Positions 34,716 through 46,029 of a stretch of 54,405 nucleotides of DNA are shown in pieces (position 1 is the first letter of the stretch; each line of letters starts with the position of its first letter). This DNA comes from an uncultured Bacilli bacterium (GTDB lineage Bacteria > Bacillota_I > Bacilli_A > RF39 > UBA660): contig CANRBV010000004.1 in assembly GCA_947628965.1 (NCBI GenBank), positions 1 to 54,405 on the forward strand, read 5' to 3'. Both the position numbers and the translations under genes were made by a program. Below the pieces are notes generated by a model. It worked only from the letters and a program-made list of their open reading frames with translations, was not told the origin of the DNA and did no database searches.

Positions 34716-36737
34716 ATGAAAAAATTAGTCATTGTTGAGTCTCCAGCAAAGAGTAAAACAATTGAAAAATACTTAGGTAGTGATTATAAAGTTGTTTCAA
34801 GCAAAGGACACATTCGCGACTTAGCAACAAGTGGAAAATTTGGTTTAGGTGTTGATGTAGATCACGATTTTAAACCCAATTATATTCCTATAAAAGGAAA
34901 AATGAAAGATATTAATGCTTTGAAAAAAGATGTCAAAAATTCCAGCTTTGTTTATTTAGCAACTGACCCAGACCGAGAAGGGGAAGCTATTTCTTGGCAT
35001 TTAAAAGATACATTAGATATTGAGGATAACTATAGTCGTGTCGTTTTTAACGAAATAACAAAGGATGTTGTAATCGATGCTATGAAGCATCCTCGTAAAA
35101 TAGATGAAAATTTAGTAAAAAGTCAAGAAACAAGAAGAATTTTAGATCGTATTATCGGATTTCGATTAAGTAAATTAATGCAATCTAAAACAGGTGGAAA
35201 AAGTGCTGGTCGAGTGCAAAGTGTAGCATTAAAATTGATTGTTGATCGTGAACGTGAAATTGAGGCCTTTATTCCTGAAGAATATTGGACAATTACTGCT
35301 GATTTTAAAGATTTTACAGCTGATTTAGAGAAATATCATGGTAAAAAAGTAGAGATTAAAAGTGAAATAGAAGCTAGTGAAATTCTTGATAAGCTATCCA
35401 AATCTTTTAAATTAGAAGATATTAAGGAAAGTGATACTTCTAAAAGTGCTAAGCCTGTTTTTAAAACAAGTACCATGCAAAGAATGGCAGCGAATCGTAT
35501 TAATTTTGCTCCATCCAAAACAATGCGTATTGCCCAAAAGCTTTATGAAGGAATTGATATTGGTAGTGAAACAGTTGGTTTAATAACTTATATGCGTACT
35601 GATTCTGAAAGAATTTCCAGCTCTTTTGTTTCGGAAACTTATGAATATATTAAAAAAAATTATGGCCCAGAATATATTGGAAGTGTTAAGGTAGGTAAAA
35701 AAGATAAAACAATGCAAGATGCCCATGAAGGTATAAGGCCTACAAGCATTTATCGTACACCTGAAAGTGTAAAAAAGTATTTAACAAATGATGAATATAA
35801 GTTATATAATTTAATTTATATTCGTGCCTTATCTTCTTTAATGGCGAATGCAAAATTTAAAACTACTACGATTATTTTAGAAAATAACGGCTATACTTTT
35901 AAAACAACAGGCAGTGTGCTTACTTTTGAAGGATATTTAAAAATCTATGCTAGTTTTGAAGAGCAAACCGATACTCTTCTGCCTGATTTTCAAAGTTATA
36001 AAAGTAGTACTATTATTGCCAATCGTATTTTAAAGGAACAACACTTTACAAAACCACTTCCAAGATATACGGAAAGCAGTTTAATTAAAGAAATGGAAAA
36101 TTTAGGAATAGGAAGACCAAGTACTTATTCAACTATTTTATCTACGATTAAGGATCGTGGATATGTTACCATTTTAGATAAAAAAATGATTCCAACAGAT
36201 ATTGGTGTAGAAACAACCGATAAATTACAAGAATTCTTTAGTGATATTGTCAATGTTGAATATACAAGTGCTATGGAAACTGATTTAGACAAAATTGCTG
36301 ATGAAGAAAAAGATAATATTAAAGTTTTACATGAATTTTATAATAAATTTGAACCATGTGTAGAGGAAGCATTTGCCAAAATGGAAAAGAAAGAAGCTGA
36401 AAAGACTGGTGAAGTTTGCCCTGAATGTGGCAATGATTTAGTAATTCGTAATGGAAAATACGGAAAATTTACCGCTTGTTCAAATTATCCAGATTGTAAA
36501 TATATTAAAAAAGAAGAAAAAGTGATTACTGAACTTTGCGATTGCCCAAAATGTGATGGAAAAATAGTTGAAAAAAGAACCCGAAAAGGAAAATTTTTCT
36601 ATGGTTGTTCAAATTATCCAAAATGCGATTTTGCTTCTTGGTATAAACCAACTGGTGAAATATGTCCAAATTGTAATTGGCCACTTGTTGAAAAGAAGAA
36701 TAAAATTGCTTGTTCAAACTGTGATTTCGAAAAATAA
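34716..36737 (+). CDS. topA: DNA topoisomerase I
   Basis: LVIVESPAK, ATDPDREGE, SAGRVQS, LITYMRTD, C-terminal C4 zinc ribbons. Confidence 0.99.
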   Translation: MKKLVIVESPAKSKTIEKYLGSDYKVVSSKGHIRDLATSGKFGLGVDVDHDFKPNYIPIKGKMKDINALKKDVKNSSFVYLATDPDREGEAISWHLKDTLDIEDNYSRVVFNEITKDVVIDAMKHPRKIDENLVKSQETRRILDRIIGFRLSKLMQSKTGGKSAGRVQSVALKLIVDREREIEAFIPEEYWTITADFKDFTADLEKYHGKKVEIKSEIEASEILDKLSKSFKLEDIKESDTSKSAKPVFKTSTMQRMAANRINFAPSKTMRIAQKLYEGIDIGSETVGLITYMRTDSERISSSFVSETYEYIKKNYGPEYIGSVKVGKKDKTMQDAHEGIRPTSIYRTPESVKKYLTNDEYKLYNLIYIRALSSLMANAKFKTTTIILENNGYTFKTTGSVLTFEGYLKIYASFEEQTDTLLPDFQSYKSSTIIANRILKEQHFTKPLPRYTESSLIKEMENLGIGRPSTYSTILSTIKDRGYVTILDKKMIPTDIGVETTDKLQEFFSDIVNVEYTSAMETDLDKIADEEKDNIKVLHEFYNKFEPCVEEAFAKMEKKEAEKTGEVCPECGNDLVIRNGKYGKFTACSNYPDCKYIKKEEKVITELCDCPKCDGKIVEKRTRKGKFFYGCSNYPKCDFASWYKPTGEICPNCNWPLVEKKNKIACSNCDFEK

Positions 36738-36937
36738 CTATCTAAGAAGAGATAATCTCTCTTTTTTTTAAATTTTACAAATTTTATTAAAATTGGTTTA
36801 AAAAAGATAAATTTTTATTAAAATTTTTCTTTTTTTATAACAAATTTATGTAAAATGAAACTAAATTTGCAAAATTGGTAATTTGCAATCTTTTTTTTTC
36901 TTTGTTATATTCCCGTTTAGAAAGGAGGTAACTTATT

Positions 36938-37282
36938 ATGAATCAGGTTGTTTTGGTTGGTAGACTTTGTTGTGAACCAGAAATTATTGGAGATGATGAA
37001 AGAAAAAGAAGTATTATAACCATAGCTGTAAATCGTCCTTTTAAAAATATGGATGGTATTTACGAAACAGATTTTATTCGTTGTGTTTTGTGGAATAATA
37101 TTGCTCTAAATACTTTTGAGTATTGTCATACAGGAGATGTCATTGGTATAAAGGGAAGACTTCAAACAAGCAGTTATGAAGATGAACAAAAAAATAAAAA
37201 ATCTGTTATGGATGTCATCGCTGAAAAAGTTACTTTTTTATCTTCAAATAATAAAAATTCGGAAAAAGAAAGAAAAGAATAA
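36938..37282 (+). CDS. ssb: Short single-stranded DNA-binding protein (SsbB-like, no acidic tail)
   Basis: MNQVVLVGRL, IAVNRPFKN, DFIRCVLW, GRLQTSSY; lacks the C-terminal DDxPF tail. Confidence 0.9.
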   Translation: MNQVVLVGRLCCEPEIIGDDERKRSIITIAVNRPFKNMDGIYETDFIRCVLWNNIALNTFEYCHTGDVIGIKGRLQTSSYEDEQKNKKSVMDVIAEKVTFLSSNNKNSEKERKE

Positions 37283-37297
37283 CATATATTTAACTAG

Positions 37298-38101
37298 GTG
37301 ATTTTTTTGAAGAAGATATATAAAACTTTAGGACTAGTAGCAATTACTCTTTTTAGTTTTTATTATACGGAAAAAATTGCAATTTTAATGCAAAATAAAA
37401 GTCCCATTATGCAAAGCATTAATGAAATTGAAGACAACTATAAAGTTGAAGCTGTTAATGCAACCATAGAGGAAAATTATGTTATTCCTGGCATTATGGG
37501 ACGAATGATTAATAAATCAAAAAGTTATGTTAATATGAAAGCTTTTGGCTTATTTAATGAATATTATTTGATTTTTGATAATATTAAACCCGATATATCT
37601 TTAGAAGATAATAAAGATAAAATTATTAAAAAAGGAAATAAAGAAAAGAAAGCAGTTGCTTTTTTATTAGAGGATGGAAGTGAGCAAATTAAGAATTACC
37701 TCAAAGAAAATAAAATACCTGCTAGTCTTTTAATACAAGAAAATACTTATCAAAATAATAATTATTTTGAACAAATTAATAATGATAAGGAAAAATATAA
37801 AAATGTAGAGAGTTTATTAAATAAAAATAATCAAAATAAAAATATTTGTTATATAAAAAATTTAGGTAAAGATTTATGCCAAAAAGAAAAAAAATATTTA
37901 ATAGAGGAAACAATGACTTTGAATAGTAATAATTTAATAGAAGCTAAAAAAAGAGTAGAAAGTGGAGCAATTTTCTATATTCAAAAAAATGTCAATCTAG
38001 AACATTTGAAACTTTTAATAAAAGAAATTGAATTTAAAGGTTTAAAAATTATAACTGTAAGTGATTTAATAAGTGAAAAGGAAATGCAATATAAAAATTA
38101 A
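37298..38101 (+). CDS. Degenerate polysaccharide deacetylase-like membrane protein
   Basis: N-terminal TM; KAVAFLL, ESGAIF, IEFKGLKIITVSDLI resemble NodB-fold ends; catalytic motifs not evident. Confidence 0.55.
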   Translation: MIFLKKIYKTLGLVAITLFSFYYTEKIAILMQNKSPIMQSINEIEDNYKVEAVNATIEENYVIPGIMGRMINKSKSYVNMKAFGLFNEYYLIFDNIKPDISLEDNKDKIIKKGNKEKKAVAFLLEDGSEQIKNYLKENKIPASLLIQENTYQNNNYFEQINNDKEKYKNVESLLNKNNQNKNICYIKNLGKDLCQKEKKYLIEETMTLNSNNLIEAKKRVESGAIFYIQKNVNLEHLKLLIKEIEFKGLKIITVSDLISEKEMQYKN

Positions 38102-38134
38102 AAGGGGAAATAATTTTCTTCTTTTTTTCATGTC

Positions 38135-38163
38135 TTGAAAATATTATTATTTTTTTGTACAAT
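38135..38163 (+). promoter_or_regulatory. sigmaA-type promoter of surface protein gene A
   Basis: TTGAAA(38135)-17-TACAAT(38158); GAGGAGG SD before ATG38192. Confidence 0.65.
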
Positions 38164-38191
38164 AAAAGCAACAATAGAGGAGGATAAAAAC

Positions 38192-40290
38192 ATGAATCGT
38201 TTTAAAGAGAACCTCCCAACCAAGACAAATAGAGGTCTCGGGGGGGGGGTATATTAGAAAGTAAAAGAAAGAAACCCAGAGACCAAATAAAATGGTTAGT
38301 CCTTGGAATCGTCATAATAGGACTAAGTATCCTAGGAACAAGTTATGCTTATTGGAACTATACAGCAAGTCAAAATAAATATAATGAAGTAAGAAGTAGC
38401 TGTTTAAAACTAGCTATGGAAAATGAAAAAGATGCAATTAGTTTAAAAGAAGCTTATCCCTTAACAGATGAAGAAGGAAAAAAATTACAACCCTATACAT
38501 TTACAATACAAAACCTATGTGAAGAAAAAGCAAATTATACAGTAAAAGTAGAGAAATTAAAAAGAAAAGGAAAAGAAGAAACTACAATATTAGATAGTAA
38601 GTATGTAGCAATAGAAGTAAATGAAGGACAAAAAGAGATATTAGGGGATTATACAAAAGGAAGAAGTACCTATGAAGGAGAAGAGTACGAATCTATAGAA
38701 GCAAGAGAGATAGTAAAAGGAACAATAGAAGGAAAAGGAACAAAGGAATATAAAATAAGATTGTGGATGGATGAAAGTGTAGAAGCAACAGAAGAAACAA
38801 TGAATAAAAGTTTTATAAGTAAGATAGTAGTGGATGGAAATCTAAATGAGTTAGCAGAATATAACGAACCTATCTTACATGGAACAGATCCAGTATTAAA
38901 AGAAGAACTAGTACCAGTCGTAATAGATGATACAGGAAAAGTCACGAAAGCCAATACTAAAGAAGAGTGGTACAACTATGAAGAAAAAAGATGGGCAAAT
39001 GCGGTAATACTTACAAATAATAAAACAGCTGATAATTATAAAGAAGGAGAACAAATACTAGAAAGTGACATAGAAAGTTATTTTGTATGGATACCAAGAT
39101 ACAATTATAAATTATTTAATACAACGAATTTTACCTATACAGCATCAACTGAAGGAGAAGTAGCAAGTCCACAAATAATAGAGGTAAGGTTTGGAACAAA
39201 AGAAACAAATGATAAAAATAAAAATGAATGCACAACACCAGGAGAATCAGGTAATATTGGAAACTGCAACAATGGCGATTGGATGACGCATCCAGCATTT
39301 CTAGCATTTCCTAATACGAAAGGTTTATGGGTCGGCAAATTTGAGACAGGATATAAGGGAGCAACCAGTACAACTACTGCTCAACATAATATAAATAACT
39401 CAAAACAAGTTATTATAAAACCAAATGTGTACAGTTGGAGAAGTATACAAGTATCAAATGCCTATCAAACTTCCTTTGGATATAAACGAGAATTAGAAAG
39501 TCATATGATGAAGAATACAGAGTGGGGAGCAGTAGCTTATTTACAACAAAGTTTGTATGGTTCTCATGAAAGTGTCAGAATTAATAACAATCGTGCTTAT
39601 TTAACAGGATATGCTGCAGTGAATAAACCAACTTGTGGATATACAGCAACAAATGAAACATGCAATAAATATGAAGAGGTGAATCTAGGGACAGGAATGA
39701 ATGCTCAAGATGGAACTTATACCTTAAATTATTTTAACTCAAAAAGTGTTTCTGCAAGTACTACTGGAAACTATTACGGTATTTATGATATGAGCGGAGG
39801 ATCAGTTGAATACATGATGGCTGTGATGGTAGATGAAAATGGCAAACCATCAAGTGGAAGGAATAGTCTTTATAATAGTGGATTCAATGGAACATTAACA
39901 TGTCCCAATTGCGCAGAAGGAACATTAAAACCAGATGGTACAACTGAGGTAAAAGATGGAATAGATTTTCCAAGGGAATCGAAATATTATGATACTTATA
40001 AATATTCGAAGAGTGCTAATGATTATACAAACGGAATCTTAGGAGATGCATCAAGTGAAATGGGCCCATTTAAAAATGCGGTTTATACTCCAACAAATGG
40101 TGAAGAAGCTCAAACAAGACATATTAGCGGGTGGTATGACGAAGATATATTACCTATTATTTATGGATTTCCATGGATCATGCGAGGTTTAGGTACTTCT
40201 CATGGTATTGGTGCAGGAATCTTTTCTTTGGATCGTGCTTATGGAAATTTGAGTAACGTTCGCAGTTTCCGTATTGTTCTTGCACTTTAA
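38192..40290 (+). CDS. Surface protein A: SipW-class signal plus C-terminal FGE-sulfatase/CLec-like domain; frameshifted at G10 (699 aa if G11)
   Basis: Leader frame stops at TAG after GGGVY; -1 frame from 38251 gives ...WLVLGIVIIGLSILGTSYAYW and is open into ORF 38416; GIYDMSGG and FRIVLAL motifs. Confidence 0.85.
38240..38249 (+). repeat. Poly-G (G10) contingency tract
   Basis: Ten consecutive G in an AT-rich genome, starting at codon 17 of gene A. Confidence 0.9.
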
Positions 40291-40498
40291 TTTAAAAAAT
40301 GAAAAAAATACCAATTTTTTAAAATTTAGTTCAAAAAAGACAAATTTGTTCTAATAATTTGTCTTTTTCTATGGAAATTTTGGTTAAAACTTTATTAAAT
40401 ATATATTTGCTTTTCTATTTTTTCTTTGCTATATTGACCATACGAGTATTAAATTATGGTGTTTGCCACCAATTTTTAAAAGAAACGAGGTGGCCACG

Positions 40499-40582
40499 AT
40501 GACAAAAAAAGATTTTTTAATTGCAGCATTGATCGTGATAATTATTTTATTAATCGTATTCTTGATAATTAACGTTTGTTAA
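40499..40582 (+). CDS. 27-aa hydrophobic peptide, candidate type I toxin (copy 2, identical)
   Basis: Same as 31043-31126; promoter TTGCTT 40407 / TATATT 40430. Confidence 0.7.
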   Translation: MTKKDFLIAALIVIIILLIVFLIINVC

Positions 40583-40606
40583 ATTAGTGGTTTTGGTTGA
40601 TAAGGT

Positions 40607-40677
40607 AAGAAAAAACACCATTTCCAATAAGGAATGATGTTTGCCAAACGGGCAAGCACTAAATTTAGTACTCGCAT
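40607..40677 (-). ncRNA. Candidate antisense antitoxin sRNA (copy 2)
   Basis: Minus-strand TTGCAT(40712-40707)-17-TATAAT(40689-40684); same hairpins; ends are approximate. Confidence 0.55.
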
Positions 40678-40773
40678 AATTAAATTATACTATAAAATAT
40701 AAATAAATGCAAATTGGATTGAAAGTAAAGGAAAAAAAGAGTAAAATGAAATTAAGATATGGAGGATTAAAAC

Positions 40774-42695
40774 ATGAATCATTTTAAAGAGAACCTCCCA
40801 ACCAAGACTAGTAGGCGTCTCGGGGGGGGGGTATATTAGAAAGTAAAAGAAAGAAACCCAGAGACCAAATAAAATGGTTAGTCCTTGGAATCGCCATAAT
40901 AGGATTAAGTATTTTAGGAACAAGTTATGCTTATTGGAACTATACAACACATCAAGAAGGAATAAATGAAATCCAAACTTCTTGTATTAAATTAGCATTA
41001 GAAAATGAATTAAATAGTATCACAATAGAAAATGCATATCCTTTAAAGGATGAAGAAGGAGAAAAATTAACGCCTTATAAATTTACAATAAAAAATGTAT
41101 GCAAAACAACAGTGAATTACACAATAAAAATAGAACAATTAAAACCAAATAACGAAGAAGAAACAAATCAAATAGAAAGTAAGTATATAGCAATAGAAGT
41201 AAATGAAGGACAAAAAGAGATATTAGGGGATTATACAAAAGGAAGAAGTACCTATGAAGGAGAAGAGTACGAATCTATAGAAGCAAGAGAGATAGTAAAA
41301 GGAACATTAAAAGGAGAAGAAAGTAGAAACTATGCTATAAAACTATGGATGGATGAAAATGTAACATTAGAAGATAATGTAGTAAATAAAAAGTTTATAG
41401 GTAAAGTTGTAGTAGATGGAAATCTAAATGAGTTAGCAGAATATAACGAACCCATCTTACATGGAACGAATCCAGTACTAAAAGAAGAATTAGTGCCAGT
41501 CGTAATAGATGATAAAGGAAATGTAACAAAAGCCAATACCAAAGAAGAGTGGTACAACTATGAAGAAAAAAGATGGGCAAATGCAATCATCTTAGCAAAT
41601 GGAAGTTCTGAAGATTATAAAGAAGGAGAACAAATACCAGAAGAGGATATAGAAAGTTATTTTGTATGGATACCCAGATATAATTATAAACTTTTTGATA
41701 TGGGAGAATATACTAGTGTAACGGATGCAATAACAAACAAAGGACCCACAACAGCAATTCAAATAAGATTTGGAACAAGCGATACAACCGATACAAAAAA
41801 AGAATGTGCAACGCCAAAAGTGTCAGGGGAAAGTGGAGATTGTGCAGTAGGGAAGTGGATGACGCATCCAGCATTTTTAGCTTTTGAAAACACCAAAGGA
41901 TTATGGGTAGGCAAATTTGAAACAGGATATAATCAAAGTGAAGATGGTTCATTAAAAGATACAACAAGTTGGACTAAAGAAAATGCAGTACAAAAGGTTA
42001 GTGATCCTGAAAAAATTATCATCAAGCCAAATTTGTATAGTTGGAGTGGAATGGTCATAGCAAATGCCTACCAAACAAGTTTTAATTATAAACGAGATTT
42101 AGAAAGTCATATGATGAAGAATACAGAGTGGGGAGCTGTAGCTTACCTTACCAATTCTTTATATGGAAGATGTACGAAAGTAAATGGGCAAGCTACTTGT
42201 ACAGAAGTAACACAAAATCGAAATAGTGAGTCTTTAACAGGCTATACATATGAAAGCGGTAAATATCCAAATTCAACGGGAGCAAGTACAACCGCTAATC
42301 GTTCAGGAATCTATGATATGAGTGGGGGAAATTGGGAAAGCGTTATGGGAATTATGGCGAATGCAAATGGTACTTTGCAATTCAATACAGAGAGTGGATT
42401 TACAAACGAAAATTTTCCAACCGAGGAGAAATATTATGATAAATATTTGTATAATTCACATCTCCAAATTTATAATAAAAGAATCCTTGGAGATGCAACT
42501 GGAGAATTGGGACCTTTTTCAAGTAAGAATGGTACGATAAGTTCAATGTATAGTGATTATGCTTGGTTTGTTTGTTATAATGGCATTTTCTTTCGCCGTG
42601 GTGGACATGTTAGTACTGGATCTAATGATGGACTTTTTGCCTTTTATTATATGAATGGTAATATGGGTGTTTTTCGTATTGTTCTTGCCTTATAA
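40774..42695 (+). CDS. Surface protein B, paralogue of A; frameshifted at G10 (640 aa if G11)
   Basis: GGAGG SD; MNHFKENLPTKTSRRLGGGVY-stop; -1 frame from 40833 is open into ORF 41112; TSYAYW signal, GIYDMSGGNWE, FRIVLAL. Confidence 0.85.
40822..40831 (+). repeat. Poly-G (G10) contingency tract
   Basis: Ten G starting at codon 17 of gene B. Confidence 0.9.
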
Positions 42696-42773
42696 AAGGT
42701 CTATTTATGTTAAAAATTTTAAAATAAAATGAGTAAAAAAAAATAAAAATTCATAGAGCGAAGTTTTATTTTT

Positions 42774-43391
42774 TTAAAATTTTCTATAAAGACCAATGGC
42801 TTTTCCTAAAATTGTACAATCATTTAATATAATCGGGGCCATGGTATCATTTTCAGGCTGTAAGCGAATATGATCCTTTTCTTTGTAGAAGGTTTTTAAT
42901 GTAACTTCATTATCAAAAGTCATCGCTACAACTATATCACCATTTCTTGCTACTTTTTGTTTTTGGACAATGACATAATCTCCATCAAATATACCTTTGT
43001 TTATCATAGATTCACCACTAACATGAAGAGCAAAGACAGTTTCTTTTTTAGGAACTAAAGATGCAGGAATATTAAAAAATTCGTTTGGTTGTTCTATTGC
43101 TTCAATAGGACTACCTGCTGTTATTTTTCCTAGCAATGGAATTTTAATAACATCTTCGTCTTTTTCTAAATATTCATTTTCAACAAGAACTTCTATTGTT
43201 CTAAATTTGTTATTGCTTGTTTTAATGACACCAGCGCTCTCTAATTTTTTTATGTGAGCATGGACAGTTGCTGGGCTTGATAATCCAAGACCTTCACATA
43301 TTTCGCGAATAGAAGGTGGAAATCCATGCATTGCCGTGTATTTTTTAATAAAAGTTAAGACTTCAGTTTGTTTTAGTGTTAATTCTTTCAT
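42774..43391 (-). CDS. lexA: SOS repressor LexA
   Basis: GFPPSIREI, SSPATVH, AG cleavage site, GESM (Ser), TLK (Lys). Confidence 0.98.
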   Translation of the reverse strand: MKELTLKQTEVLTFIKKYTAMHGFPPSIREICEGLGLSSPATVHAHIKKLESAGVIKTSNNKFRTIEVLVENEYLEKDEDVIKIPLLGKITAGSPIEAIEQPNEFFNIPASLVPKKETVFALHVSGESMINKGIFDGDYVIVQKQKVARNGDIVVAMTFDNEVTLKTFYKEKDHIRLQPENDTMAPIILNDCTILGKAIGLYRKF

Positions 43392-43414
43392 AAAAGTTTT
43401 TCCTTTCCATTTTT

Positions 43415-43492
43415 ATATTAACACTTTATGTGTAAAAAGTCAAACAAATGTTCACAATTCTTCTTGACACGAACAAATATACGTGTTAATCT
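43415..43492. promoter_or_regulatory. Divergent lexA / SOS-operon promoters with SOS (Cheo) boxes
   Basis: Minus TTGACT(43443-43438)-17-TAATAT; plus TTGACA(43464)-17-TAATCT; AAACAAATGTTC at 43442-43453 and CGAACAAATATACG at 43470-43483 resemble GAAC-N4-GTTC. Confidence 0.8.
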
Positions 43493-43515
43493 TAAAACAG
43501 AAAGAAGGAATGTAT

Positions 43516-43662
43516 ATGAAAAAAATATGGACAAAATATTGTGGAGCTATTTTGCTCTACTCGGTGGTCTTTTTTGGTATCATTGCCATCAATATCAGAT
43601 ATAAATTTTTGAATGAACAAAATATAGAAAGGGATTGCTCAATTGTAGCAATTGGAGATTAA
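43516..43662 (+). CDS. 48-aa single-pass membrane protein in the yneA position (candidate SOS division inhibitor)
   Basis: AAGGA SD; MKKIWTKYCGAILLYSVVFFGIIAINIRYKFLNEQNIERDCSIVAIGD; missed by the ORF track. Confidence 0.7.
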   Translation: MKKIWTKYCGAILLYSVVFFGIIAINIRYKFLNEQNIERDCSIVAIGD

Positions 43663-43663
43663 T

Positions 43664-43987
43664 ATGCAAGAACAACTTATATACTCCTTATCACGTGGGG
43701 ACAATTTAGATTATATTCAAAAATATGTTTTAGAAAAAGAAAAAGGAACTAAAGTTATTCAAAAAGATATTTCTAATGAAATGTTTCATTTATTTTTTGG
43801 TATTATGGAATTAGGAAAAGAAGTAAGAAATGCTTTAAAAAATGATACCTATTTAGATACCGAACTGAAAATAGCGGATATATTCCTCATCTTAATTGCT
43901 CTATGCAATAATTTGAATATCAATTTATTTGATGCTTTAATAAAAAAAGAACAATTTTTAAATGGAAAAATGGCAAAATGGTTTTAA
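43664..43987 (+). CDS. MazG-like nucleotide pyrophosphatase fold protein, degenerate
   Basis: ELGKEVR and ELKIADIFLILIALCNNLNINL..A...KE pattern; GGAG SD before ATG43664. Confidence 0.65.
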   Translation: MQEQLIYSLSRGDNLDYIQKYVLEKEKGTKVIQKDISNEMFHLFFGIMELGKEVRNALKNDTYLDTELKIADIFLILIALCNNLNINLFDALIKKEQFLNGKMAKWF

Positions 43988-44034
43988 TTTTTGCCATTTT
44001 TTGTTATACTTAACAAAGAATAGGTAGGGATAGT

Positions 44035-46029
44035 ATGATAGAAAATGATATAAATTCGGTAAATGAAATTAAAGCCCTTGCACTTGATATGATTAGCAAT
44101 GCAAAAAGTGGCTATCCTGGGATTGCTTTATCTGCAGCACCCATATTGTATACTTTATATGCAAAACATTTAAATTTTAATCCAGAAAATCCAGGTTGGT
44201 TAAATCGAGATCGTTTTGTTCTTGCTTCTGGTCATGCTACGAGTGTTCTTTATGCAACATTACATATTTGTGGATTTCCTATAACAAAGGAAGATTTGAA
44301 ACAATATCGCAATATTGATTCTAACTTGCCTGGATATCCTGATAAGGAACTAACCCCTGGAATTGATGTTTCTATCGGAAGTGCTGGTTTAGGTATTAGT
44401 AATGGAGTTGGACTTGCTCTTGCTGAAAGATATCTTAGAAATATTGTAAAAAGTGAAGAGGAAGAACAAGCTTTAATCGATTATCGTACCTATGTATTTT
44501 GTAGTGATATTGATTTAATGGAAGGGGTAAGTTACGAAGCTACTTCTTTTGCTGGAGCCCAAAAACTAGATAAGTTTATGCTTTTATGCGATATTTCTGG
44601 AATTACAAATGATGGTGAAGTTAAAAATAATTTTATCGAAGACTTAGAAATGCGCTTTGAATCTATCGGTTTTTATGTGGGAACTGTAAAGGATGGTAGT
44701 AATTTAAAACTTATTGATAAAGCAATCACCAATGCGAAAAAAAGTAAAAAACCATCCGTAGTATTCTTTAAAACAATTATAGGTAAAGATTCTCGTAATG
44801 AAAATAAAAGTGTTTCTTTTGAAGGACCATTAAGTGACGATGATGTTTTTGCGATAAAAAGAAAATTAAATGTTACAGTTGCTCCTTTTGAAGTTAGAAA
44901 GGATTCAGTTGTCTATATTCGTTCTTTAATTAATAATCGTGTCAGAGAAAAATATAGTCTTTACATCAATTCTTTTAATAAAATAAAGTCTTCGGCAAAC
45001 GACCGATTACTAAAATTATTGCAACTATTAGTAAATAAAGAATTTAATATCCCTTTTGAAAGTTTAAATTTTAAAGTAAATGATTCCTATAATGAAAATC
45101 TTTTAATGACAAATCATAAAATTTTAAATATGGTTGCTTCGAAAACAGAATTTTTATTTGGAGGAAGTGCAGATGTTGCTTCTACTACTAAAGTCTATAT
45201 TGATCATACGAGTATTCAAAGTCCTGAAAAACCATTAGGAAGAAATATTAATTTTGGTTTAAGAGAAGAAGCCATGGCTGGTATTTTAAATGGTATCTCG
45301 TTAAGTGGTTTAAAAACTTATTGTAGTACTAAATTAATAAATGCGGATCGATTAAAAAGTTCTATGCGCTTGAGTGCTTATATGCAACTACCAATTGTTT
45401 ACTTTTTTACACATGATGGTTTTGGTAACGGAGAAGATGGTCCTACTCAAGAAAGCTTAGAACAACTTGATATGTTAAGAAGTATTCCTAATCTGAAGGT
45501 TTTCCGTCCTAGTGATATTAATGAGGTTTTGGGAATATGGGAATATATCTGTAAAGAAAAGGGTCCTATTTGTGTAATACTTGGAAATAATAAAATGCCT
45601 AAGGTTTTAAATACACATCCTAAATTGACACTAAAAGGCGGTTATATTGTAAAAAAAGAAGAGGTACACTTGGATGGAATTCTAGTTGCAACTGGACGTG
45701 AAGTTTTAGATGCTTTAAATATTGCTGTTGAGCTCAAAAAAGAAAATTTAGATATTCGTGTGGTTACAATGCCTTCTATTGAACTTTTCTTAAAACAAGA
45801 TAAAACTTATCAAGATCAAATATTGCCTAAAACATGTAAAACGATTGTATTGGAACCAAATAGTAAACTTTCTTGGGGCATTTTTGTAAAGGATCCTAAT
45901 GATATAATTGGTTTAAATGATTTTGGTTATAGTGGTCACCAAGAAGAAATTTTAAGAAAAATAGGTTATGATTATGAAAGTTTAAAAATTACAATTGCTA
46001 AACTTTTTCTTAGTAATAGAAAAAATTGA
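44035..46029 (+). CDS. tkt: Transketolase homologue, probably catalytically impaired
   Basis: RDRFVL.SGH, GSAD, FG.RE, THD..G.GEDGPT; lexA-tkt-sirA-yneF synteny; many active-site substitutions. Confidence 0.9.
   Translation: MIENDINSVNEIKALALDMISNAKSGYPGIALSAAPILYTLYAKHLNFNPENPGWLNRDRFVLASGHATSVLYATLHICGFPITKEDLKQYRNIDSNLPGYPDKELTPGIDVSIGSAGLGISNGVGLALAERYLRNIVKSEEEEQALIDYRTYVFCSDIDLMEGVSYEATSFAGAQKLDKFMLLCDISGITNDGEVKNNFIEDLEMRFESIGFYVGTVKDGSNLKLIDKAITNAKKSKKPSVVFFKTIIGKDSRNENKSVSFEGPLSDDDVFAIKRKLNVTVAPFEVRKDSVVYIRSLINNRVREKYSLYINSFNKIKSSANDRLLKLLQLLVNKEFNIPFESLNFKVNDSYNENLLMTNHKILNMVASKTEFLFGGSADVASTTKVYIDHTSIQSPEKPLGRNINFGLREEAMAGILNGISLSGLKTYCSTKLINADRLKSSMRLSAYMQLPIVYFFTHDGFGNGEDGPTQESLEQLDMLRSIPNLKVFRPSDINEVLGIWEYICKEKGPICVILGNNKMPKVLNTHPKLTLKGGYIVKKEEVHLDGILVATGREVLDALNIAVELKKENLDIRVVTMPSIELFLKQDKTYQDQILPKTCKTIVLEPNSKLSWGIFVKDPNDIIGLNDFGYSGHQEEILRKIGYDYESLKITIAKLFLSNRKN

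What the first reader, a model, noticed from the sequence alone, without database searches (positions are those of the whole stretch)
38192..42695. Two paralogous surface-protein genes, each held out of frame by a G10 tract just after a shared 16-codon leader
Seen: the ORF track starts these genes at 38416 and 41112, but both really begin at SD-backed ATGs (38192, 40774) encoding MNxFKENLPTKTxRxL. Each leader is followed by exactly ten G and then GTA TAT TAG. With G11 or G8 the leader fuses to an open frame carrying a TM helix ending in TSYAYW and the full 640-700-aa body. Known: SipW-cognate signal peptides end in similar S/T-x-A-Y-F/W motifs, and poly-G tracts are classical slipped-strand phase-variation switches. 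Inference: this is a two-locus ON/OFF contingency system for secreted lectin-like fibre or adhesin proteins, both OFF in this assembly. Tandem tRNA-Gly -1 slippage (SD-like AGAGGT just upstream in gene A) or transcriptional slippage could also give low-level expression.
Basis: partly seen in the sequence, partly recalled or inferred. Interest (0 to 1): 0.78.

Follow-up and report, generated by a model that had tools for sequence, protein, structure and literature searches.

The report
Poly-G on/off cassette on surface-protein genes
Two neighbouring surface-protein genes of an uncultured rabbit-gut bacterium are each held out of frame by a run of ten G's just after a shared start cassette, and a related genome carries about 41 copies of that cassette, so this is probably a genome-wide random on/off switch for surface proteins rather than a two-gene oddity.

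Summary
Both genes start at an SD-backed ATG (38192 and 40774). A 16-codon leader is followed by exactly ten G's, and the leader frame stops five codons after the tract. G8 or G11 would fuse the leader to an open frame of about 620-680 codons.

The finding is the tip of something larger. The same roughly 150-nt module (promoter, SD, leader MNxFK(E/K)NLPT.., poly-G, stop-rich linker) occurs 41 times in a related rabbit-gut Bacilli MAG, ahead of three N-terminal variants of one protein family. Tract lengths there are G10 in 34 copies, G9 in 3, G11 in 2 and G8 in 1. G9 is in frame in that genome, and raw k-mers support both G9 and G10.

The proteins carry a signal/anchor ending in a SipW-like site (S-Y-A|Y-W), a domain homologous to a sipW-adjacent protein, and a C-type-lectin/FGE-like head.

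The best reading is classical slipped-strand phase variation of the translational-fusion type, with most loci OFF (confidence about 0.62).

One feature is unexplained: an invariant C-rich leader segment (CCTCCCAACC, rare codons) pairs with the G tract. This keeps hairpin-assisted transcriptional slippage alive as a rival.

The parts
38135..38163 (+). Promoter-like site of gene A (TTGAAA-17-TACAAT), part of the conserved cassette
   Evidence: The same position is conserved in 36 aligned cassette copies.
38176..38184 (+). Shine-Dalgarno AGAGGAGGA of gene A
38192..38239 (+). 16-codon leader of gene A (MNRFKENLPTKTNRGL). It contains the invariant AGAACCTCCCAACC at 38208-38221.
38211..38250 (+). 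Predicted hairpin in which the leader's CCUCCC..CC pairs with the G tract (A)
   Evidence: whole 98-nt leader fold (38165-38262) -24.4 kcal/mol, z = -4.0 against shuffles
38240..38249 (+). G10 tract of gene A (OFF; ON would need G8 or G11)
   Evidence: The tract is also G10 in assemblies L044 and L045.
38255..38257 (+). TAG that ends the leader frame at G10. The G9 frame ends at the TAA at 38262-38264.
38248..40290 (+). Body of gene A in the -1 frame. In order: basic tail, TM helix, TSYAYW site (38338-38355), TasA-position-like N-terminal domain, CLec/FGE-like head.
40719..40747 (+). Promoter-like site of gene B (TTGAAA-17-TAAAAT)
40774..40821 (+). 16-codon leader of gene B (MNHFKENLPTKTSRRL), with AGAACCTCCCAACC at 40790-40803
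40793..40832 (+). Predicted hairpin of the C-rich leader segment with the G tract (B)
   Evidence: whole 98-nt leader fold (40747-40844) -23.9 kcal/mol, z = -2.7
40822..40831 (+). G10 tract of gene B (OFF; ON would need G8 or G11)
40837..40839 (+). TAG that ends the leader frame of gene B
40830..42695 (+). Body of gene B, a paralogue 62% identical to A in protein sequence

Best explanation
Genes A and B are two members of a large family of secreted or anchored surface proteins. Each member carries a SipW-type signal, a TasA-position-like N-terminal domain and a C-type-lectin/FGE-like ligand-binding head. Each is driven by the same portable 5' module: its own sigma-70-like promoter, a strong SD, a 16-codon leader, a poly-G tract and a linker with stops in both wrong frames.

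The tract works as a heritable slipped-strand (replication slippage) switch of the translational-fusion type. Only one length class in three joins the leader ATG to the body, and the body has no start codon of its own. In this species G10 is OFF and G11 or G8 is ON.

The tract lies in the cytoplasmic N-tail of a probably cleaved signal peptide, so one Gly more or less should not change the mature protein.

With dozens of independently switching copies and most of them OFF, each cell would display a small random subset of lectin-like surface proteins. This would serve antigenic or receptor variation against host immunity, phages or changing glycans.

Shown:
- the anatomy and the frame logic;
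- the copy number;
- the existence of G8 to G11 alleles and of in-frame alleles among paralogues;
- the protein folds.

Inferred:
- that the length changes at one locus at high, reversible frequency;
- that SipW cleaves the signal;
- the biological role.
For: 1. **Frame logic.**
2. **Both tracts are highly non-random.**
3. **The cassette is widespread and tightly linked to poly-G.**
   - It occurs 41 times in MAG Lapin-021__bin68 and once in bin93.
   - Every G>=8 run in 414 kb of window plus loci lies in a cassette, 44 of 44.
4. **Tract lengths differ among copies.** In bin68 they are G10 in 34 copies, G9 in 3, G11 in 2 and G8 in 1. G9 is in frame there and gives continuous ORFs of 658 and 515 aa from the leader ATG (L039, L013).
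5. **Raw data support both lengths.** Unitigs of the bin68 sample carry G9 (depth 14-18, about single copy) and G10 (depth 45-65) with the same flanks.
6. **The bodies are maintained.** 28 of 33 complete bin68 bodies stay open for at least 400 codons although they are OFF, so they are not decaying pseudogenes.
7. **Wrong frames are closed.** Both wrong frames hit stops within 3-5 codons in all three linker variants.
8. **No uniform miscall fits both species.** The window needs +1/-2 nt and bin68 needs -1/+2 nt, so no uniform sequencing miscall and no single ribosomal frameshift direction can make both species ON.
9. **The products are surface proteins.**
   - More than 5,600 homologues start with M, a basic stretch, a TM helix and (S/T)(Y/F)A|x(W/F).
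   - The AF2 model has pLDDT 84.5, and the best PDB match is the DGR variable protein TaqVP 5vf4, E = 4e-8.
   - The N-terminal 185 aa are homologous (hhalign 96%, E = 2e-9) to the protein encoded after a SipW-type peptidase in bin68.
   - An aromatic P2' residue is the hallmark of the SipW substrate TasA (PMC10269814, abstract seen).
Against: - No length variation was demonstrated at one and the same locus.
  - The window and two further assemblies of the same strain (L044, L045) all show G10 at the tracts they cover (A in both, B in L044).
  - The indels seen in unitigs over the window's tracts are explained by paralogous cassette variants.
- G10 is nearly fixed: 34 of 41 copies in bin68 and 4 of 4 in the window's strain. 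It is OFF in both species. This is more uniform than in the classical poly-G phasomes as I recall them (my recollection, not checked here).
  - It could reflect gene conversion, a mutational optimum or selection for OFF.
  - It is also what a programmed RNA-level mechanism would predict.
- De Bruijn assemblers can homogenise a tract inside a 40-copy repeat.
- No ON gene products with this leader were found in the 5.8-billion-protein collection, apart from bin68's own.
- The invariant C-rich arm has no role in the classical model.
Confidence: 0.62

Rival explanations
1. Programmed transcriptional slippage. The tract is kept at G10, about the length of the RNA:DNA hybrid. The conserved upstream C-rich segment of the nascent RNA pairs with the first G's and peels them off the template, much as a terminator hairpin would. 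RNA polymerase then realigns and makes a fixed minority of G9 and G11 transcripts. Every copy is therefore expressed at a low constitutive level without any DNA change.
For: - CCTCCCAACC is invariant in 44 of 44 cassettes across three genomes, although it is built from rare codons. CTC is 1.5% of Leu codons, ACC 13% of Thr and AAC 12% of Asn, giving a joint probability of about 1e-4.
- It is predicted to pair with the tract in all four copies folded, z = -2.7 to -4.0.
- The tract is followed by a U-rich stretch (UAUAUUA or UUAUUAUUU).
- G10 is nearly fixed and is OFF in both species although the offsets needed are opposite. Slippage in both directions would serve both.
- There is a precedent: a nascent stem-loop 5'-adjacent to the motif enables slippage at T5C5 in Roseiflexus IS630 (PMC5009743).
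Against: - The efficient RNAP slippage described in PMC5009743 is at runs of 9 A/T; the one C-containing motif it describes (T5C5) does not slip without a helper hairpin.
- Here the tract is itself the 3' arm, not a motif downstream of a complete hairpin.
- Alleles of G8, G9 and G11 exist, including in-frame G9 copies at single-copy depth, so the DNA length does change.
- No RNA data exist.
Confidence: 0.17
2. Programmed ribosomal frameshifting on the G run. This would be a -1 slip of tRNA-Gly on G GGG GGG in the window's genes, as the first reader suggested as a side route, and it would supply the full-length proteins.
For: - A G10 run is slippery for tRNA-Gly.
- The body lies in the -1 frame in the window.
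- Gene A has AGAGGT 6 nt upstream of the tract.
Against: - The related genome needs the opposite shift (+1 or -2) with the same G10 and the same cassette.
- The SD-like element is absent from gene B and from all 41 bin68 copies.
- No downstream stimulator is present. The only predicted structure includes the tract itself and lies upstream.
Confidence: 0.05
3. Artefact or decay. Either the true tract is in frame and G10 is a homopolymer miscall or a repeat-collapse consensus, or the genes are pseudogenes.
For: - All assemblies are short-read de Bruijn assemblies of a 40-copy repeat.
- Unitigs break at the tracts.
- One assembly shows a chimeric A/B gene.
Against: - No uniform miscall can put both species in frame.
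- G8, G9, G10 and G11 are distinguished by the same pipeline, and G9 and G10 are both seen in raw k-mers.
- Exact A-specific unitigs spanning G10 exist in three of the four runs of the window's sample; the fourth run has one with a single mismatch.
- Bodies of 400-690 codons remain open in 28 of 33 copies.
- The cassette keeps stops in both wrong frames.
Confidence: 0.08

Closest known systems
Neisseria Opa proteins (CTCTT repeats) and PilC (poly-G), with repeats in the signal-peptide coding region (from my own knowledge of the field; phasome surveys PMC5953494)
   Same: - The repeat lies just after the start codon, inside the part of the protein removed on export.
- Its length sets the reading frame.
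- A multigene family of surface adhesins has a conserved 5' end.
- Each copy switches on its own, and most are OFF.
   Different: - Gram-positive, uncultured gut Bacilli lineage.
- About 40 copies rather than 11-12.
- Each copy has its own near-identical promoter-SD-leader module.
- There is a conserved C-rich complement of the tract.
- The signal is SipW-type rather than Sec/LepB or lipoprotein type.
- The protein family is unrelated.
Campylobacter jejuni poly-G phasome (PMC6321876, PMC8355987)
   Same: - Intragenic G8-G11 tracts in a low-GC genome.
- Dozens of loci per genome.
- Mostly surface-structure genes.
   Different: - As far as I recall (not checked here), Campylobacter tracts sit at various places in unrelated genes, with no shared leader cassette, and their lengths and ON/OFF states are widely spread.
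- Here one cassette is used throughout, and G10 = OFF holds at about 83% of loci.
Streptococcus pyogenes SclB/Scl2 (CAAAA repeats right after the start codon) and Mycoplasma hominis Vaa (poly-A) (from my own knowledge)
   Same: Translational phase variation of a surface adhesin in Firmicutes/Mollicutes through a repeat in the 5' coding region.
   Different: - Those are single loci.
- The repeat type differs.
- They have no conserved multi-copy cassette.
Roseiflexus IS630 stem-loop-dependent transcriptional slippage (PMC5009743)
   Same: A GC-rich nascent-RNA hairpin abuts a short homopolymeric motif, and a 1-nt change in the RNA restores the frame.
   Different: - There the hairpin is complete and lies 5' of a T5C5 motif in a transposase gene.
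- Here the G run is itself one arm.
- No RNA evidence exists for this cassette.
DGR variable proteins with CLec fold (TaqVP, 5vf4)
   Same: The C-terminal domain has the same fold (Foldseek E = 4e-8) and probably serves as a ligand-binding head that the cell diversifies.
   Different: - Diversity here comes from many paralogues plus ON/OFF switching.
- No reverse transcriptase or template repeat lies near the genes.
- There was no Pfam hit.

Membership tests
Simple-sequence-repeat contingency locus (translational type) | Hypermutable repeat tract inside the 5' coding region | tested here: met
   G10 sits at codons 17-20 in both genes.
Simple-sequence-repeat contingency locus (translational type) | Changing the tract length toggles between a truncated peptide and the full-length ORF | tested here: met
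   In-frame G9 alleles in bin68 give ORFs of 658 and 515 aa.
Simple-sequence-repeat contingency locus (translational type) | Tract length differs between cells or strains at the same locus | tested here: inconclusive
   - Lengths G8 to G11 occur among paralogues, and G9 and G10 k-mers share the same flanks in raw data.
- The A locus is G10 in the window and in both other assemblies (L044, L045); the B locus is G10 in the window and in L044.
- The indels in unitigs are explained by paralogues.
Simple-sequence-repeat contingency locus (translational type) | High-frequency reversible switching | not testable with these tools
   This needs a culture, or deep locus-specific sequencing over time.
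SipW-cognate signal peptide (NCBIfam TIGR04088; TasA/camelysin type) | Match to the family model | tested here: not met
   No NCBIfam hit, even at E <= 10, for the N-terminal 220 aa or for the sipW-adjacent homologue.
SipW-cognate signal peptide (NCBIfam TIGR04088; TasA/camelysin type) | Small residues at -3 and -1 and an aromatic residue at P2' at the end of the h-region | tested here: met
   The site reads S-Y-A|Y-W. A39 and W41 are nearly invariant in 56 homologues. The aromatic P2' of TasA is from PMC10269814.
SipW-cognate signal peptide (NCBIfam TIGR04088; TasA/camelysin type) | A SipW (archaeal-type signal peptidase I) gene in the genome | tested here: inconclusive
   - Present in the related MAG at L030:80-931 (TIGR02228, 102.8 bits, cut-off 51.85).
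- It is followed by a homologue of the N-terminal domain.
- None lies in the 54-kb window.
CLec / FGE-sulfatase fold ligand-binding domain | Fold match to solved CLec/FGE-type structures | tested here: met
   Foldseek hit to 5vf4_D, E = 4e-8, probability 1.00, TM (target) 0.42. The model has pLDDT 84.5.
CLec / FGE-sulfatase fold ligand-binding domain | Sequence membership in Pfam FGE-sulfatase (PF03781) or another lectin family | tested here: not met
   No Pfam or NCBIfam family and no PDB sequence hit.
Leader-peptide attenuator switches (S. gallolyticus pil1 type) | The downstream gene has its own start, and a terminator lies between the leader ORF and the gene | tested here: not met
   There is no ATG/GTG/TTG in the body frame before the TM helix, and no terminator-like site at the cassette.
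Hairpin-stimulated transcriptional slippage (Roseiflexus IS630 type) | A nascent-RNA hairpin abuts the slippage motif | tested here: inconclusive
   A hairpin is predicted in four of four copies, but the tract is one of its arms. The outer stem shows no sequence variation, so covariation cannot be tested.
Hairpin-stimulated transcriptional slippage (Roseiflexus IS630 type) | mRNA length heterogeneity from a uniform DNA template | not testable with these tools
   No RNA runs hold the stretch.

The most novel reading that the evidence does not exclude
The cassette may be more than a plain slippery tract. It could be a dedicated, portable 'switch module' in which an invariant C-rich leader segment folds back on the G run. 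That hairpin would either drive programmed transcriptional slippage at a G10 tract, which would be unprecedented for a G run in bacteria as far as I know (from memory, not searched here) and would give every one of about 40 lectin-like surface genes a fixed low stochastic expression. Alternatively, it would set the DNA slippage rate and direction of the tract. Either way, this would be a new cis-element class that an uncultured gut Bacilli lineage installs on whole gene families.
Probability: 0.17. Interest if true: 0.8.

Novelty: new variant of a known kind. Interest (0 to 1): 0.6.

Why it matters
If this reading is right, an uncultured, small-genome gut Bacilli lineage runs one of the larger homopolymer 'phasomes' known to me, at least 41 loci in one MAG. 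As far as I could find, nothing like it has been reported for Gram-positive commensals, although my literature searches were limited.

The lineage uses a single copy-and-paste promoter-leader-poly-G module on a family of lectin-headed, probably SipW-exported surface proteins. That would mean combinatorial surface variation is a normal strategy of gut commensals and not only of mucosal pathogens.

There are practical consequences for annotation. Gene callers mis-start or truncate these genes; examples are 'MKIVVWGGGIL..', 'MLVGIIAG..' and the ORF-track starts at 38416 and 41112.

The conserved C-rich arm offers a directly testable question about whether RNA or DNA structure is used to tune slippage.

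Tried and rejected
1. **Whole-genome tools.** Other cassette copies, sipW and mismatch-repair genes in the window's own genome could therefore not be sought.
2. **Read evidence.**
   - Only Logan contigs exist for the holders, with no raw reads.
   - I first read the -1, -2 and -3 indels at tract B as length variation.
   - I rejected that reading. Those contigs carry 1-3 other differences and match paralogous cassette types such as ..AGTAGCCGTCT+G10 and G10+TCATTAG.
3. **JGI metagenome scan.** The pattern AACCTCCCAACC-N8-24-G7+ gave 36 hits, none of them a cassette.
4. **Search for in-frame gene products with the leader in the 5.8-billion-protein collection.**
   - Nothing was found for the window-type leader.
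   - Only bin68's own protein was found for the bin68-type leader.
5. **RNA-seq runs.** None were available.
6. **Rfam over 36700-44100.** No hit.
7. **'MKIVVWGGGIL' proteins (P0011, P0019).** I first took these for ON alleles with another leader. They are gene-caller GTG starts inside the leader in the body frame, with no SD.
8. **More assemblies of the A locus through the upstream gene.** Only the two already known turned up. L044 is the same strain, 100% identical outside 38300-38600 up to about 40600; the colinear comparison was not evaluated beyond an indel there.
9. **Leader-peptide attenuation and reinitiation.** Rejected, because the body has no start codon and there is no terminator.


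Full report
**1. The observation**

Gene A starts at ATG 38192, eight bases after AGAGGAGGA. It encodes MNRFKENLPTKTNRGL, then runs into ten G's (38240-38249). At that length it reads GGG GGG GGG GTA TAT TAG.

Gene B has the same layout at 40774. Its leader is MNHFKENLPTKTSRRL, with G10 at 40822-40831 and the TAG at 40837-40839.

- The long frames open immediately after a TAG that lies inside each leader (38230-32 and 40812-14).
- They read RSRGGGILESKRKKPRDQIKW, then a hydrophobic helix, then GTSYAYW, and continue for 685 and 626 residues.
- The first canonical start in those frames is at 38416 and 41112. Both lie beyond the helix, so the ORF-track starts are artefacts.
- Only G8 or G11 joins leader and body. 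G9 ends in TAA after eight codons.
- These are the only runs of eight or more G's in a 54-kb window of 29% GC. Shuffles expect 0.13, and 0 of 100 shuffles reached the observed count.

**2. The context**

- The flanks are housekeeping genes: RNase HII, an LtaS-like sulfatase-fold protein, TopA, SSB and a deacetylase-like protein upstream, then A and B, then LexA on the opposite strand and transketolase.
- Each gene has its own promoter-like site, at 38135-38163 and 40719-40747.
- The sample is a rabbit gut metagenome.
- Earlier notes of this scan describe the genome as an uncultured small-genome gut Bacilli lineage. That is a lead only.

**3. The proteins**

- Neither protein hits Pfam or NCBIfam or any PDB sequence.
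- More than 5,600 proteins from gut MAGs ('Bacilli bacterium') are homologous, often several per contig.
- Complete homologues begin with M, a few basic residues, a TM helix and (S/T)(Y/F)A-x-(W/F). A39 and W41 are nearly invariant.
- An AlphaFold model built on 56 sequences has mean pLDDT 84.5. Its best PDB match is TaqVP, the C-type-lectin-fold variable protein of a diversity-generating retroelement (5vf4, E = 4e-8). The C-terminal half is therefore a CLec/FGE-like ligand-binding head.

*The SipW link.*

- The related MAG has an archaeal-type SipW-like signal peptidase (TIGR02228, 102.8 bits, cut-off 51.85).
- After one intervening gene (a 197-aa ORF), it is followed by a 260-aa protein whose signal ends in GSSYALF, and then by a cassette gene.
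- The first roughly 185 residues of family A are homologous to that 260-aa protein (hhalign 96%, E = 2e-9).
- S at -3, A at -1 and an aromatic residue at P2' fit a SipW/TasA-type site (PMC10269814).
- The TIGR04088 model does not hit, so formal membership is not shown.

**4. The finding is one corner of a genome-wide system**

- Homologues P0019 and P0007 come from MAG GCA_947631035.1 (Lapin-021__bin68, rabbit).
- Three loci read there show the same promoter, the same SD (ATGGAGGAG), a leader MNSFKKNLPTxxNSRL, G10, and then TATATTA or a variant.
- A scan of one genome per species for AGAACCTCCCAACC-N8-24-G6+ gave 41 cassettes in that one MAG. It also gave one in Lapin-018__bin93, one on a probably mis-binned contig, and three chance hits.
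- Every run of eight or more G's in the 414 kb examined lies in a cassette, 44 of 44.
- Conservation starts at the -35 hexamer, about 80 nt upstream of the 14-mer, and ends some 30 nt after the tract.
- The bodies share the same lectin-like C-terminal region but carry three different N-terminal signal/domain types (..GTSYAWW....SLYRSFAMYEE....SFSYAYIKYE..). The bin93 copy has another C-terminal domain.
- In the window's own sample the k-mer depth over the cassette is 200-260 against a baseline of 13-15. In the bin68 sample it is 340-470 against 11-27. The window's sample therefore also holds many copies (about 15 cassette equivalents by depth, from this genome and/or close relatives).

**5. 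Tract lengths and states**

- In bin68 the leader has 47 nt before the tract, so G9 or G12 is in frame.
- The lengths there are G10 in 34 copies, G9 in 3, G11 in 2 and G8 in 1.
- Two G9 copies give uninterrupted ORFs of 658 and 515 aa from the leader ATG. This proves that the leader ATG is the functional start of the family.
- Unitigs of that sample contain both G9 (depth 14-18, about single copy) and G10 (depth 45-65) with identical flanks. The assembler did not invent the difference.
- 28 of 33 complete bodies remain open for at least 400 codons. That is incompatible with decay.
- In the window's strain the leader has 48 nt, so G8 or G11 is in frame. A is G10 in the window and in two further assemblies (L044, L045), and B is G10 in the window and in L044. 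L044 is essentially the same strain.
- The two species need opposite corrections. No uniform homopolymer miscall and no single ribosomal frameshift direction can turn both ON.

**6. What could not be shown**

- Only assembled k-mer contigs of the runs are available.
- The indels over the window's tracts belong to contigs with other differences. They match paralogous cassette types.
- Length variation at a single locus therefore remains unproven.
- Exact A-specific unitigs across G10 exist in three of the four runs of the sample (the fourth carries a single mismatch), at depth 5-10 against 13-15 for the flanks. This is uninformative at that depth.
- No RNA run holds the genes.
- JGI metagenomes hold no cassette.
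- The protein collection holds no further in-frame products.

**7. An unexplained conserved element**

- The leader codons AAC CTC CCA ACC are invariant in all cassettes of three genomes. One copy has AGC in place of AAC.
- CTC is 1.5% of Leu codons in the window, ACC 13% of Thr and AAC 12% of Asn, so the joint expectation is about 1e-4.
- RNAfold pairs CCUCCC..CC with the G run in all four copies tested. The whole leaders fold at -24 to -26 kcal/mol, z = -2.7 to -4.0.
- The tract is followed by a U-rich stretch.
- In the classical model this arm has no role.
- It resembles, loosely, the nascent-RNA hairpin that enables transcriptional slippage in Roseiflexus IS630 (PMC5009743).
- Together with the near-fixation of G10 as an OFF length in both species, it keeps an RNA-level mechanism alive.
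- Gene conversion among cassettes would also explain uniform G10. The chimeric A/B gene in L044 hints at such conversion, although it could equally be an assembly chimera.

**8. Verdict**

- The most likely mechanism is a slipped-strand, translational-fusion phase switch, with confidence about 0.62. It is placed in the dispensable N-tail of a cleaved signal peptide and replicated on dozens of lectin-headed surface-protein genes, most of them OFF.
- The rivals are hairpin-assisted transcriptional slippage (0.17), artefact or decay (0.08) and ribosomal frameshifting (0.05).
- The closest known systems are Neisseria Opa and PilC and the Campylobacter poly-G phasome.
- The differences from those systems are:
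  - the lineage;
  - the single portable promoter-leader-tract module;
  - the C-rich complementary arm;
  - the uniform G10 = OFF state.
- I rate it a new variant of a known kind, with interest 0.6.

Noticed in passing
window 40499-40582 (+): A small SD-backed ORF lies between genes A and B. It encodes a 27-aa, very hydrophobic peptide (MTKKDFLIAALIVIIILLIVFLIINVC). It could be a small membrane protein or a type-I-toxin-like peptide.
   Followed up: no
window 40600-40700; L001 9800-9900: The intergenic stretch upstream of gene B (AAAACACCATTTCC..AAGGAATGATG..GGCAAGCACT..) is recognisably conserved upstream of some family-A cassettes in the other species. It has no Rfam match.
   Followed up: partly
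L044 5680-6100 (corresponds to window 38300-38600): Another assembly of the same strain is 100% identical in the flanks. Its gene A, however, carries gene B's sequence for about the first 100 codons after the tract. This is either gene conversion between the paralogues or an assembler mis-threading between two shared repeats.
   Followed up: partly
L030 80-2407: The related MAG has an operon encoding a SipW-like peptidase with a long Lys-rich C-terminal tail, a 197-aa protein and a 260-aa TasA-position protein (signal ..GSSYALF). A cassette gene lies directly downstream.
   Followed up: partly
window 38230 and 38234 (reads): Contigs in the window's sample carry T38230A at high summed depth, which would remove the TAG that closes the body frame upstream of the tract, and G38234A. 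These probably come from paralogous cassettes elsewhere in the genome.
   Followed up: no
window sample, runs X1-X4: The same sample holds cassette types whose leader ends in CT (..AGTAGCCGTCT+G10), as in bin68, beside the CTC type of genes A and B. Both frame offsets may therefore coexist in one genome or community.
   Followed up: partly
L038 (Lapin-018__bin93), cassette on the minus strand (0-based offset 3519 on the reverse complement): A third species carries the cassette with a shorter leader (MKKVNKKNLPTRITL) and a shorter loop (11 nt), with the same CCTCCCAACC and G10. It sits in front of a protein with a different C-terminal domain.
   Followed up: no
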